From the IMG/VR virus record IMGVR_UViG_2703718819_000007: DNA of 64,000 bases. One strand, given 5' to 3'. This document shows positions 39,001-42,000 of the stretch, piece after piece. The DNA is from a virus (Duplodnaviria > Heunggongvirae > Uroviricota > Caudoviricetes). The position numbers are program-made. Each line of letters opens with the position of its first letter. Position 1 is the first letter of the stretch.

Positions 39001-42000
39001 TCAGGTTGTATCGTGAAATTAGTGACGGAAAAAGCATCACGTACATGATCGCCGGGTTAAACAAAGAATATGGCGATGTGGTGGAGTCCGGACTGCTTTT
39101 TGCTGATCCTGCCGTAGTGGATCGTGAAACTGACGAACTTATAGAAAAAGCAATTGCTTTCAAACTTGCGTATCGACAGCAATACCAACAAAAAGCTGGA
39201 TGGAATTATGAGCCTTCTTTTTGCTGAACGCCCACTGGTTATAAACACACAGCTTGCGATGAAGATTGGCTTAAATGAAGCCATTGTGTTGCAGCAGTTG
39301 CATTACTGGTTGAGAGATACCAATTCCGGTATGGAATGTGATGGTGTTCGCTGGATTTACAACACAACGGAACAATGGCTGGAACAGTTCCCATTCTGGT
39401 CAGAGTCAACGTTAAAGCGCGCGTTTGCAAGTCTGAAAACGCTGGGGCTTTTGCGTTGTGAAAAGCTCAATAAATCAAAGCGCGATATGACCAATTTCTA
39501 CACGATCAACTACGGGAGCGAGCTTTTAGATGATGGCAAATTGAGCGAATCCATCGGTTCAAAATGCGCCGCTCCATCAGGTCAAAATGACACGATGGAA
39601 GAGGTCAAAATGAAACGCTCCATTGGTTCAAAACGATCCAATGTCATCGGGTCAAAATGGCCTGATGATCTTACAGAGAATACAACAGAGATTACTACAG
39701 AGAATAAAAACACTTTTCGTCCGGAAGCTTCGCAACCGGACCCGCAGACGACTGAACAGGATTTTTTAACCCGGAACTCCGACGCGGTTGTGTTTAGTGC
39801 GAAAAAACGCCAGTGGGGTAGCAGGGAGGATTTGGCGTGTGCGCAGTGGATCTGGGGGCGGATCGTGGGCCTCTACGAACAGGCAGCCAGTGATGATGGC
39901 GAGATCATGAGACCAAAAGAGCCTAACTGGACTGTCTGGGCCAATGACGTGCGCACAATGCGGATGCTGGATGGCAGAAGCCACAGACAAATTTGCGAAA
40001 TGTTTGGTCGGGTTCAGCGAGATCCATTCTGGGTAAAAAACATCATGAGCCCGTCAAAGCTCCGCGAAAAATGGGACGAACTGGTCATCCGCCTGGGACG
40101 TTCACCTGTACAGCGTTGTGTTAATCATATTTCTGAACCGGATACAGAAATTCTGCCTGGTTTCAGAGGATAAGTGTTGATTTCAGGTCATGAGGTAATT
40201 TTAAGGGGGACTTGTGGCAAAAGTTTTTACACAAGAAGAGCGGGAAAAAATTAAAGGGCAGGTGGTGGAACTCGTGCGCCAGAGCGGTCGTGAGACGTTA
40301 CGGCAACTGGAAGCTAAAACAGGTGCGACTAGATATCTGATGAGCGTTCTTGCCAGAGAGCAGGTAGCCAGTGGCGATGTATACAACTCCGGCTACGGGT
40401 TATTCCCGTCTGAACAGGCGCGTAAGGACTGGCAAAACGCCCGCAAAAAACTCTCGAGGGCAAAGGTGAAGAAACCTGCTGTGGTTGATCCGGACCTTAT
40501 CTGGTCATTACCTGACGGAGAAATACGCCGCTACGACAGTCGTCTAAACATAATCTGTCGCGAGTGCCGGAAGAGCGAAGTTATGCAGCGTGTTCTGACG
40601 TTTTATCAGGGGAATTATCGGGAGGTGATGCTGTGAGTACATCGGCTACCATTCTCGACATGTGCTGTGGCAGTCGCATGCTCTGGTTCGATAAGAATGA
40701 CGAATGGTCGATATTTAGCGATATCAGGAAAGAGGAACATTCGCTATGTGATGGACGTCACCCGATTATTAATCCCGACATTATCGCTGATTTTCGTGCG
40801 CTGCCGTGGTTGTCTGCTTTGCATCAAAAGCAGACATTACCAGATTTAGACATCTGTTTCCGATAGCCCGTTCTGATGCTACACTTTTTGCTATTTTCAT
40901 GAACCTCATAAACACATTTATGACTGTTGCTGATTTCAAACGCCCCAAATTGGAGCTCCCAAACGGGGCAAAAAAACTATTACTGCACTCTTGCTGTGCT
41001 CCATGTTCCGGTGAAGTGATGGAGGCGCTTCAGGCCTCGGGAATCGACTACACCATCTTTTTCTACAACCCGAACATTCATCCTCAGAAAGAGTATTTAA
41101 TTCGTAAGGATGAGAATATTCGCTTTGCTAAACAACACGGCGTGCCATTTATTGATGCTGATTACGACACAGACAACTGGTTTGAGCGAGCCAAAGGAAT
41201 GGAATGGGAGCCTGAACGAGGGATCCGTTGTACCATGTGTTTTGACATGCGTTTTGAGCGGACTGCACTGTATGCCGCTGAAAATGGTTTCAGTGTGATC
41301 AGTAGCTCACTGGGCATTTCACGCTGGAAAAATATGCAGCAGGTTAACGACTGTGGACGGCGAGCCGTCGCGCATTATCCGGGCATGGTGTACTGGGATT
41401 ATAACTGGCGAAAACAGGGCGGCTCTTCCCGCATGATTGAAATCAGCAAGCGCGAACAATTCTATCAGCAGGAATATTGTGGCTGCGTGTATTCACTGCG
41501 CGATACCAATCTACACCGCAAATCTCAGGGACGCCCTCTAATCAAAATTGGTCAACTGCACTACGGTAAGGAAGGACAGGAATGATTTTATATTATGCCA
41601 ACGGAGCGTAGCAGTGTTTCTATATATAGTACGCCTACCTTAATTTTCAAATAATCATGATTAATGAGCAGGTCATCAGTGCAAGCAATGACCTGCTCAT
41701 CTTGTTGAAATTAGAGGAAATCTTGCAGCCATGATATGGCTTAAAATAACGTTTGATTATTTTACCTGCTGTTTGTCCCTGGTTTAAAGTCGGTTGTCTG
41801 ATTTGATTACGCGCAACTGACGCTTACGTATTGAAGTAACGAGCACGAAGACACATATTTATCAGTGCCTGTATACGTCAAGAGCAGGAGATTTATGTGC
41901 TGGTTCTCAAATGCACGCTGGCTATTGTGGCTGTAATGGCAATTTATTGTCTTGTTATTGTTCTTATGGATCACCTTTCTGATTGATTTCATATTGGCGA

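What the first reader, a model, noticed from the sequence alone, without database searches (positions are those of the whole stretch)
40633..41585. Prophage-encoded QueH-like epoxyqueuosine reductase next to a methyltransferase-like fragment
The motifs HSCCAPC, NPNIHP, RC..CF.MRFERTA and YCGC match the DUF208/QueH family as I remember it. E. coli normally uses the unrelated QueG for this step, so a prophage copy would be an auxiliary tRNA-modification gene. The 77-codon fragment just upstream (40633-40866), with a SAM-binding-like motif, suggests a decayed partner gene.
Basis: partly seen in the sequence, partly recalled or inferred. Interest (0 to 1): 0.55.

Follow-up and report, generated by a model that had tools for sequence, protein, structure and literature searches.

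The report
Prophage-carried QueH tRNA-modification gene
A lambda-like prophage in this E. coli carries an intact copy of QueH, a vitamin-B12-independent enzyme for the last step of queuosine tRNA modification; the call is correct, but RefSeq already names the gene and about 18% of complete E. coli genomes have it, so it is real but largely ordinary.

Summary
Window 40920-41585 (+) encodes a 221-aa protein that matches Pfam QueH end to end (E=1.9e-65). Its best sequence and fold matches among solved structures are Thermotoga maritima QueH. It lies in the early-right region of a full-length lambdoid prophage at the Qin site, between a DUF977 gene and hokD/sok.

The 77-codon ORF upstream is a real methyltransferase remnant. 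It keeps the SAM-binding motif and has lost the DPPH catalytic motif. It is not a partner of QueH. It is a small phage DNA methyltransferase gene cut at the left edge of a ~790-bp queH cassette (40805-41591), and most queH prophages have no such remnant.

queH is in 995 of 5426 complete E. coli genomes, while queG is in all 5426. The two prophage alleles differ by 36 synonymous and 7 non-synonymous changes (dN/dS about 0.04), so the gene is under purifying selection.

The most likely role is a B12-independent back-up epoxyqueuosine reductase. Activity and expression are not shown. RefSeq already names the protein QueH, so I file it as already known. I found no paper on it. REL606 has the gene and BL21(DE3) has deleted it.

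The parts
40920..41585 (+). queH coding sequence (221 aa, stop included). Alternative upstream in-frame starts are ATG 40899 and GTG 40806.
   Evidence: Pfam QueH E=1.9e-65, full length. Matches T. maritima QueH 7lc5 at E=5e-22. The AF2 model's best PDB match is 7lc5, target-normalised TM 0.73. RefSeq CDS WP_001595803.1. Homologues align from 40918-40920.
40805..41591 (+). queH cassette: the block shared at ~93% nucleotide identity by both E. coli/E. albertii prophage alleles. It comprises 115 bp upstream, the CDS and 6 bp downstream.
   Evidence: blastn against CT30, O103:H2 strain 129 and E. albertii loci gives window 40805-41591 in every case, with different sequence on the left.
40633..40866 (+). 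Truncated small DNA methyltransferase gene (pseudogene). True homology covers 40633 to about 40818. The last ~15 codons are read from cassette DNA.
   Evidence: tblastn homology to phage methyltransferases ends at residue 59-62. DNA homology to the PhiR42_1 methyltransferase ends at 40799. The alignment shows motif I (ILDMCCGSR) kept and the DPPH motif lost. PGAP marks 40633-40818 as an incomplete methyltransferase. PHROG and PADLOC methyltransferase hits cover the N-terminal third only.
40214..40636 (+). DUF977 / Ren-like (LygF) gene, the usual left neighbour of queH.
   Evidence: Pfam DUF977 E=6.5e-29. phrog_142. It lies upstream of queH in most of 80 IMG/VR loci.
40877..40897 (+). Two weak extended -10-like elements (TGcTACACT and TGcTATTTT) inside the cassette leader. 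This is a candidate own promoter and is inference only.
   Evidence: My lenient scan; both elements are conserved in the second allele. The stricter consensus scan found no + strand promoter in 40100-41990.
41592..41963 (.). Allele-specific 372-bp spacer between the cassette and the hokD/sok region. It contains a perfect 13-bp hairpin at 41664-41700 that may act as a terminator.
   Evidence: Absent from the CT30-type allele, which joins 41591 directly to 41964. Found in only 117 genomes. Hairpin: (z = -2.9).
42029..42353 (+). sok antisense RNA region and hokD toxin gene, the usual right neighbour of queH.
   Evidence: Rfam sok 115 bits. Pfam HOK_GEF E=3e-23. hokD lies 231-245 nt or ~616 nt downstream of queH in most IMG/VR loci.

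Best explanation
Window 40920-41585 encodes an intact, functional QueH. QueH is the cobalamin-independent iron-sulfur epoxyqueuosine reductase that converts epoxyqueuosine (oQ) to queuosine (Q) at position 34 of the Asn, Asp, His and Tyr tRNAs. Here it is cargo of a full-length lambdoid prophage at the Qin site. It entered this phage lineage as a ~790-bp cassette (40805-41591) placed between the DUF977 gene and hokD. In this allele the left junction cut a resident small DNA methyltransferase gene, leaving a dead 5' fragment. Every E. coli already has the B12-dependent QueG. The prophage copy is therefore a second, non-orthologous enzyme for the same step. Its most likely benefit is to let Q maturation proceed when cobalamin, which E. 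coli cannot make de novo, is unavailable. Shown here: family membership, intact motifs, fold, prophage location, cassette boundaries, purifying selection, population frequency and co-occurrence with queG. Inferred: enzymatic activity, B12 independence in this host, when the gene is expressed, and who benefits.
For: The Pfam QueH match is full length at E=1.9e-65. T. maritima QueH structures are the only PDB sequence hits (E=5e-22) and the top fold hits. Cys25/26/29, Cys104/107 and Cys187/189 are invariant across 25 proteobacterial QueH proteins that are 76-86% identical to this one. Closest relatives are 89-92% identical at the protein level and lie in ordinary non-phage chromosomal contexts in Scandinavium, Kluyvera and Enterobacter. 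The two prophage alleles differ by 36 synonymous and 7 non-synonymous changes, dN/dS 0.04. queH is present and full length in 985-995 of 5426 complete E. coli genomes. An isolated phage, HannyBb, matches 40200-41700 at 99.6% nucleotide identity and encodes an identical QueH. At least 189 IMG/VR contigs encode a close relative. queG is in 5426 of 5426 genomes. QueG's step is cobalamin-dependent (PMC4646009, citing Frey 1988). QueG and QueH coexisting as cofactor-specific alternatives has been proposed for S. aureus (PMC13443448). No tgt, dpdA or queCDE gene is annotated in the prophage.
Against: No activity or expression data exist for this protein. No consensus sigma-70 promoter lies upstream of queH, and no terminator separates it from the early-right operon. 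It may therefore be silent in repressed lysogens and be made only after induction. No convincing Shine-Dalgarno sequence precedes either ATG (direct reading). The residue aligned with T. maritima Asp13, which the depositors mutated to D13N, is Cys here. It is Cys in all close homologues too. No phenotype distinguishing oQ from Q is known to me, so the selective benefit is unproven. Prophage genes are not enriched in NAU codons relative to neighbouring host genes.
Confidence: 0.8

Rival explanations
1. QueH is a phage-benefit gene expressed only during lytic growth. It would be transcribed from the early-right promoter along with the replication genes, and would top up Q on host tRNAs to favour phage protein synthesis. 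It would not be a lysogenic-conversion gene active in the repressed prophage. This overlaps with the best explanation on enzyme function and differs on timing and beneficiary.
For: The gene is co-oriented with, and directly downstream of, cro, the YdaT-like gene, the O-like gene and DUF977, with no predicted terminator or consensus promoter in between. It is kept in a viable phage, HannyBb.
Against: Prophage early and late genes show no excess of NAU codons over adjacent host genes: 0.55 and 0.65 against 0.61. The gene persists under purifying selection in many prophages, including the degraded one in REL606, where phage benefit is moot. Two weak extended -10-like elements are conserved in the cassette leader.
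Confidence: 0.25
2. The methyltransferase fragment and QueH once formed a functional pair. An example would be a SAM-dependent enzyme acting with QueH on a nucleic-acid modification, with the partner now decayed.
For: The two are adjacent and co-oriented in this allele.
Against: Intact relatives of the fragment are small DNA methyltransferases with a DPPH motif, found in many phages that lack QueH. Methyltransferase homology stops where the cassette starts. 923 of 995 queH-positive genomes carry the other allele, and no methyltransferase remnant is annotated or aligned in the loci of that allele that I examined. Only 14 of 80 viral loci have a remnant. Chromosomal queH loci in other genera have unrelated neighbours.
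Confidence: 0.02
3. The protein acts on something other than tRNA, for example reducing an epoxy-deazaguanine in phage DNA or countering a host defence. On this reading it is a repurposed QueH.
For: Phages are known to use 7-deazaguanine chemistry on their DNA (PMC6884629).
Against: That study found no QueA, QueG or QueH homologue in the DNA-modifying viruses it analysed. This prophage has no DpdA/Tgt-like or preQ0-synthesis genes annotated. The protein is 76-92% identical to QueH proteins that lie in ordinary chromosomal contexts in other genera, which leaves little room for neofunctionalisation. It has no PADLOC hit.
Confidence: 0.03
4. The gene is a neutral hitch-hiker or is decaying, and has no function in E. 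coli.
For: It is redundant with the universal queG. BL21(DE3) lost it with no known consequence. One genome has an IS1 inserted in the 1.5-kb region around it (H13).
Against: dN/dS is 0.04 between alleles at dS 0.32. The ORF is full length in about 985 genomes. All family-invariant residues are intact.
Confidence: 0.04

Closest known systems
QueH (DUF208, Pfam PF02677, COG1636): cobalamin-independent epoxyqueuosine reductase, with solved structures from Thermotoga maritima (7LC5, 7LC7)
   Same: Full-length profile match, the same predicted fold, and the same CCxP / CxxC / CxC cysteine framework. It is 76-92% identical to proteobacterial proteins named QueH.
   Different: It is carried on a temperate phage rather than at a chromosomal locus. 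It coexists with QueG instead of replacing it. The position of T. maritima Asp13 is Cys, as in all close proteobacterial homologues. Activity has not been tested.
QueG (YjeS): the cobalamin- and 4Fe-4S-dependent epoxyqueuosine reductase of E. coli
   Same: It is predicted to catalyse the same reaction, oQ34-tRNA to Q34-tRNA.
   Different: It belongs to an unrelated family and needs a different cofactor, B12. It is a core gene present in 5426 of 5426 genomes, whereas queH is accessory in 995 of 5426.
Cargo ('moron') genes of lambdoid prophages between the replication and Q modules, such as relBE/flxA at the equivalent place in K-12 Qin (the K-12 gene order is from my own knowledge)
   Same: It sits in a variable slot flanked by conserved phage genes. 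It is present or absent among otherwise related phages, and has discrete recombination joints.
   Different: A self-contained promoter-plus-terminator unit is not demonstrated. The cargo is a housekeeping-type tRNA-modification enzyme rather than a toxin, exclusion or virulence factor.
Phage 7-deazaguanine DNA-modification clusters (DpdA with FolE/QueD/QueE/QueC)
   Same: Both involve queuosine-pathway chemistry encoded by phages.
   Different: Those systems lack QueA, QueG and QueH (PMC6884629). This prophage has none of their signature genes.

Membership tests
QueH / DUF208 (PF02677) | Significant, full-length match to the family profile above the curated threshold | tested here: met
   E=1.9e-65, 220.7 bits against a cut-off of 23.5, profile positions 1-174 of 175.
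QueH / DUF208 (PF02677) | Homology and fold shared with structurally characterised QueH | tested here: met
   phmmer against the PDB returns only T. maritima QueH chains, E=5e-22. The AF2 model (pLDDT 72.7, pTM 0.77) has 7lc5, 7lc7, 9d86, 9dco and 9deu as its top Foldseek hits (E=1e-10, target-normalised TM 0.73), followed by distant matches to other nucleotide-binding alpha/beta enzymes such as TtuA, NcsA, GMP synthetase and QueC.
QueH / DUF208 (PF02677) | Conserved cysteine framework for the metal centres (CCxP[C/D], CxxC, CxC) | tested here: met
   Cys25/26/29, Cys104/107 and Cys187/189 are present and invariant in 25 homologues. They align with T. maritima C9/C10/D13, the CxxC motif and the CGC motif. 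The D13 position is Cys here. Which residue binds which metal comes from my memory of Li et al. 2021, a paper I could not read.
QueH / DUF208 (PF02677) | Reduces epoxyqueuosine to queuosine in tRNA without cobalamin | not testable with these tools
   This needs complementation of a queG mutant and LC-MS of tRNA nucleosides.
QueH / DUF208 (PF02677) | Typical phyletic pattern: it replaces QueG. This is a tendency, not a strict definition. | tested here: not met
   queG is in all 5426 complete E. coli genomes, including every queH-positive one. Coexistence is also reported for S. aureus.
Prophage cargo / moron gene | Lies inside a prophage in a slot that varies among related phages | tested here: met
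   It lies between DUF977 and hokD in a Qin-site lambdoid prophage. It is absent from PhiR42_1, from K-12 derivatives and from about 82% of genomes. The cassette joints are at 40805 and 41591.
Prophage cargo / moron gene | Own promoter and terminator allowing expression from the repressed prophage | tested here: inconclusive
   No consensus promoter or terminator was found. There are only weak extended -10-like elements and an allele-specific downstream hairpin.
Small phage DNA amino-methyltransferase (phrog_11564, phrog_954, PADLOC MTase_II) | SAM-binding motif I together with the catalytic DPPH/DPPY motif in one reading frame | tested here: not met
   Motif I (ILDMCCGSR) is present. The DPPH motif and everything after about residue 62 are missing. 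This is a pseudogene, as PGAP also says.
Phage 7-deazaguanine DNA modification (Dpd-type) | DpdA/Tgt-like transglycosylase and preQ0 synthesis genes in the same element | tested here: not met
   None is annotated anywhere in the prophage. Such viruses were reported to lack QueH.

The most novel reading that the evidence does not exclude
Qin-family temperate phages may convert the host's tRNA modification state. By supplying QueH they would make the last step of queuosine synthesis independent of vitamin B12. About 18% of E. coli strains would then carry Q rather than epoxy-Q on four tRNAs under B12-poor conditions. These strains include REL606, E. coli C and ATCC 8739. K-12 and BL21(DE3) lack the gene. 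This would be a phage-borne, strain-level polymorphism in decoding chemistry that has gone unnoticed in standard laboratory strains.
Probability: 0.35. Interest if true: 0.5.

Novelty: already known. Interest (0 to 1): 0.3.

Why it matters
QueG needs cobalamin, which E. coli must import. A phage-borne QueH would remove that dependence for the final step of queuosine synthesis. If it is expressed, common laboratory and clinical strains would differ in whether four tRNAs carry Q or its epoxide in B12-free media. REL606, E. coli C and ATCC 8739 have the gene, while K-12 derivatives and BL21(DE3) do not. This is relevant to people who measure tRNA modifications or compare translation between strains. 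It would also be a rare example of a temperate phage carrying a tRNA-modification enzyme, since a 2019 survey found no QueH in the viruses it examined. The enzyme family, its reaction and this protein's name are already in the databases, so the gain is context and a testable prediction, not a new kind of system. There is one practical point: PHROGs lists the family as 'unknown function', and the one isolated phage that carries the gene annotates it as hypothetical.

Tried and rejected
- **NCBIfam:** the scan gave no hit for QueH, the methyltransferase fragment or DUF977. This is uninformative, because Pfam and RefSeq naming are clear.
- **Pfam on the fragment:** the 77-aa fragment gave nothing. 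Intact relatives gave only marginal Methyltransf_11/25 hits. PHROGs and PADLOC were needed to identify it.
- **Recent donor:** the best non-Escherichia DNA match is Scandinavium at 85.6% over the CDS only, with no shared flanks. No recent donor can be identified.
- **Phage context outside Escherichia:** tblastn of the window's phage proteins against 80 genome loci found DUF977 and hokD only next to the E. albertii copy. Neighbours in Scandinavium, Kluyvera and Enterobacter are metabolic or regulatory genes.
- **Codon-usage idea:** the NAU fraction is 0.61 in host genes, 0.55 in early prophage genes and 0.65 in late prophage genes. This gives no support for the idea.
- **Promoter and terminator:** the consensus scan found nothing useful around queH. 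An apparent 10-bp inverted repeat at the cassette's left end (about 40811-40836, seen by eye) is not kept in the second allele, so I dismissed it as chance.
- **Defence role:** QueH has no PADLOC hit.
- **Literature:** nine searches found no paper describing prophage-borne QueH in E. coli. The two key QueH papers, Zallot 2017 and Li 2021, are not held. I cannot exclude that they mention it.
- **Other 'phage' QueH hits:** most hits in the phage collection are unannotated metagenomic fragments or oversized records of 280-380 kb, so I did not count them as evidence for phage carriage.
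Full report
**What is in the sequence.** The window is identical to E. coli STEC2018-607 chromosome NZ_CP075697.1, positions 11695-75694. From 32018 onward it holds a lambdoid prophage inserted between rspB and ydfJ, which is the Qin site. The gene order is integrase, excisionase, exonuclease, ydfD, dicB, DicF RNA, cI-like and cro-like genes, a YdaT-like gene, an O-like replication gene, DUF977, a methyltransferase remnant, queH, sok/hokD, rem, ydfU (DUF968), the Q antiterminator, csp genes and lysis genes. Beyond the window lie terminase, portal, capsid and tail genes. The only visible defect in the structural region is an IS3 insertion in a tail gene.

RefSeq starts it at ATG 40920, and homologues from other genera align from exactly there.

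**Is it QueH?**
- The 221/228-aa product matches Pfam PF02677 (QueH) at E=1.9e-65 over profile positions 1-174 of 175.
- Against all PDB sequences, the only hits are the Thermotoga maritima QueH chains, at E=5e-22.
- An AlphaFold2 model (pLDDT 72.7, pTM 0.77) has those same QueH structures as its best Foldseek matches (E about 1e-10, target-normalised TM 0.73). More distant hits are other nucleotide-binding alpha/beta enzymes such as TtuA, NcsA and QueC.
- In an alignment with 24 proteobacterial proteins that sources name QueH (76-86% identical), Cys25, Cys26, Cys29, Cys104, Cys107, Cys187 and Cys189 are invariant.
- In the pairwise alignment these fall on T. maritima C9, C10, D13, the CxxC motif and the CGC motif.

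One difference from the solved enzyme is that Asp13, for which a D13N mutant structure has been deposited, corresponds to Cys29 here and in all close relatives. I could not read the structural paper. The assignment of these residues to a 4Fe-4S cluster plus an adjacent iron therefore rests on my memory of it. Family membership by sequence, fold and motif is met. Catalytic activity cannot be tested with these tools.

**The upstream fragment.** GTG 40633 opens a 77-codon frame that overlaps the DUF977 stop codon. Its first ~61 residues match phage DNA methyltransferase families:
- phrog_11564, E=2.9e-28
- phrog_954, profile positions 50-108 of 229
- PADLOC Type II methyltransferase, positions 3-64 of 169
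- PADLOC orphan methyltransferase, positions 5-57 of 153

tblastn against phage genomes finds relatives in 234 records, and homology always stops at residue 59-62. An alignment with fuller copies from PhiR42_1, Salmonella phage Oslo and a Klebsiella phage shows that the fragment keeps the SAM-binding motif I (ILDMCCGSR) through ADFRALP. It lacks the following DPPH catalytic motif and everything after it. PGAP likewise marks 40633-40818 as an incomplete methyltransferase.

**How the two relate.**
- DNA comparison with phage PhiR42_1, which has DUF977 and a longer copy of the methyltransferase gene (118 aa, DPPH motif present) but no queH, shows homology running from the O-like gene to window 40799 and then stopping.
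- Comparison with a second queH allele, found in strain CT30, O103:H2 strain 129 and E. albertii, shows homology beginning at 40805 and ending at 41591. That allele has unrelated sequence to the left and no methyltransferase remnant.
- queH therefore travels as a cassette of about 790 bp: a 115-bp leader, the CDS and 6 bp. In the window's allele the left joint falls inside the methyltransferase gene.
- The last ~15 codons of the '77-codon' frame are simply cassette DNA read in the methyltransferase frame.
- Among 80 IMG/VR viral loci encoding a 97-100% identical QueH, nearly all have DUF977 just upstream and hokD downstream. Only 14 carry the methyltransferase remnant.
- Chromosomal queH loci in other genera have no such neighbour.

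The fragment is collateral damage at a recombination joint, not a decayed partner of QueH.

**Origin and selection.** QueH is highly conserved across Proteobacteria, at 75-80% identity even to Sphingomonas and Stenotrophomonas copies. The nearest non-Escherichia proteins are from Scandinavium (92%), Kluyvera (90%) and Enterobacter (89-90%). They lie among ordinary metabolic and regulatory genes, and none of the window's phage genes is nearby. Only the E. albertii copy shares the DUF977 and hokD setting. At the DNA level the best outside match is 85.6% and confined to the CDS. The capture from an enterobacterial chromosome is therefore not recent, or the donor has not been sampled.

The two prophage alleles differ at 43 nucleotides but only 7 amino acids. 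That is 36 synonymous and 7 non-synonymous changes, with dS 0.32, dN 0.013 and dN/dS 0.04. This is strong purifying selection and argues against a dead passenger gene.

**Distribution.**
- queH occurs in 995 of 5426 complete E. coli genomes: 72 with the window's allele (99% identity or more) and 923 with the ~93% allele. Almost all copies are chromosomal.
- Carriers include E. coli B REL606, E. coli C, ATCC 8739, and O157:H7 and O103 strains.
- queG is in all 5426 genomes, so every queH carrier has both enzymes.
- In the GenBank phage collection, the only convincing isolated phage with the gene is Escherichia phage HannyBb. It matches 40200-41700 at 99.6% nucleotide identity, encodes an identical QueH, and annotates the gene as hypothetical. 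The other hits are unannotated metagenomic fragments or oversized records.
- PHROGs places the protein in phrog_3217, 'unknown function'.
- A 2019 survey of 7-deazaguanine genes in viruses reported no QueA, QueG or QueH homologues (PMC6884629).
- Nine full-text searches found no paper on a prophage QueH in E. coli. The original QueH papers are not in the library.

**Most likely function.** The protein should reduce epoxyqueuosine to queuosine on tRNA without cobalamin. QueG's step is cobalamin-dependent (PMC4646009, citing Frey et al. 1988). That E. coli cannot synthesise B12 de novo is established knowledge, not something tested here. A B12-independent second enzyme is thus the obvious selective rationale. 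QueG and QueH coexisting as cofactor-specific alternatives has been proposed for S. aureus (PMC13443448).

Timing and beneficiary remain open:
- queH is co-oriented with the early-right operon.
- No consensus promoter lies upstream, and no terminator separates it from DUF977.
- There are only two weak extended -10-like elements in the cassette leader, conserved in both alleles.
- In this allele only, a perfect 13-bp hairpin lies 78 nt downstream of the stop codon.

The gene may therefore be expressed mainly after induction. Against a benefit to phage translation, prophage genes are not enriched in the Q-decoded NAU codons. Other roles are unlikely. The prophage has no DpdA/Tgt or preQ0-synthesis genes annotated. 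QueH has no PADLOC hit. Its near-identity to QueH proteins at ordinary chromosomal loci in other genera leaves little room for a new activity.

**A useful by-product.** BL21(DE3) and its derivatives (C43, NEBExpress, BL21-RIPL, BL21 Star) carry a 1361-bp deletion corresponding to window 40511-41871. It removes the DUF977 3' end, the methyltransferase remnant and queH. REL606 and another B strain keep them. K-12 derivatives match only the hokD end of the region. This gives closely related queH+ and queH- laboratory strains for a direct test of Q against oQ in B12-free medium.

**Verdict.**
- The 'auxiliary prophage gene, redundant with QueG' reading is supported by context and population data.
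- The 'decayed partner' idea is wrong.
- The protein is an ordinary, already-named member of a known family, present in roughly a fifth of E. coli, so I file it as already known.
- Its residual interest is modest and lies in the unstudied consequence that temperate phages may make queuosine completion B12-independent in some strains, including common laboratory ones.

Noticed in passing
window 40511-41871, compared with BL21(DE3) locus L171 4000-4002: BL21(DE3), C43(DE3), NEBExpress, BL21-RIPL and BL21 Star carry a 1361-bp deletion with a TA microhomology at the junction. It removes the DUF977 3' end, the methyltransferase remnant and queH. REL606 and B-StaR keep queH. This is a natural queH+/queH- pair of E. 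coli B strains.
   Followed up: yes
window 41592-41963 (hairpin at 41664-41700): A 372-bp spacer occurs only with the window-type queH allele (117 genomes). The commoner allele joins 41591 directly to 41964. The spacer holds a perfect 13-bp inverted repeat with an 11-nt loop (folding z-score -2.9) that could act as a terminator. No gene is annotated there.
   Followed up: partly
window 40920-41585; phage HannyBb locus L002 6700-7386: There is an annotation gap. PHROGs v4 files this protein under phrog_3217 'unknown function', and the isolated phage HannyBb calls it hypothetical, whereas RefSeq names it QueH.
   Followed up: yes
window residue Cys29 of QueH (about 41004-41006): The residue aligned with T. 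maritima QueH Asp13 (a D13N mutant structure, 9dco, exists) is an invariant Cys in this protein and in 24 proteobacterial homologues. This may mean a different ligand at the metal site.
   Followed up: partly
L006 7967-9977 (E. coli O103:H2 strain 129): In this prophage, queH is followed by a DNA cytosine methyltransferase and an NgoMIV-family restriction endonuclease instead of hokD. The slot downstream of queH is a cargo hotspot.
   Followed up: no
L005 11605-11914 (E. coli CT30 prophage): A queH-carrying prophage also carries four tRNA genes (Ile, Lys, Thr, Gly) downstream of Q. None of them is a Q-modified tRNA species.
   Followed up: no
window 36773-36824 (-), 42029-42203 (+), 45498-45921 (+), 48399-48783 (+): Rfam finds DicF RNA, the sok antitoxin RNA upstream of hokD, and two cspA-type thermoregulator leaders (cspB and cspI) within the prophage.
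   Followed up: no
window 8347-16728 (+): The other prophage fragment at the start of the window encodes an 8.4-kb gene annotated as an LPD38 domain-containing protein (about 2790 aa). It lies next to small genes annotated as bacteriocin and Hok/Gef.
   Followed up: no
window 43129-44217 and REL606 locus L001 9065-9619: The DUF968/HNH-like ydfU gene is intact here but truncated in REL606 and BL21(DE3). Beyond the window, an IS3 element interrupts a tail gene of this prophage (record positions 75447-77037).
   Followed up: no
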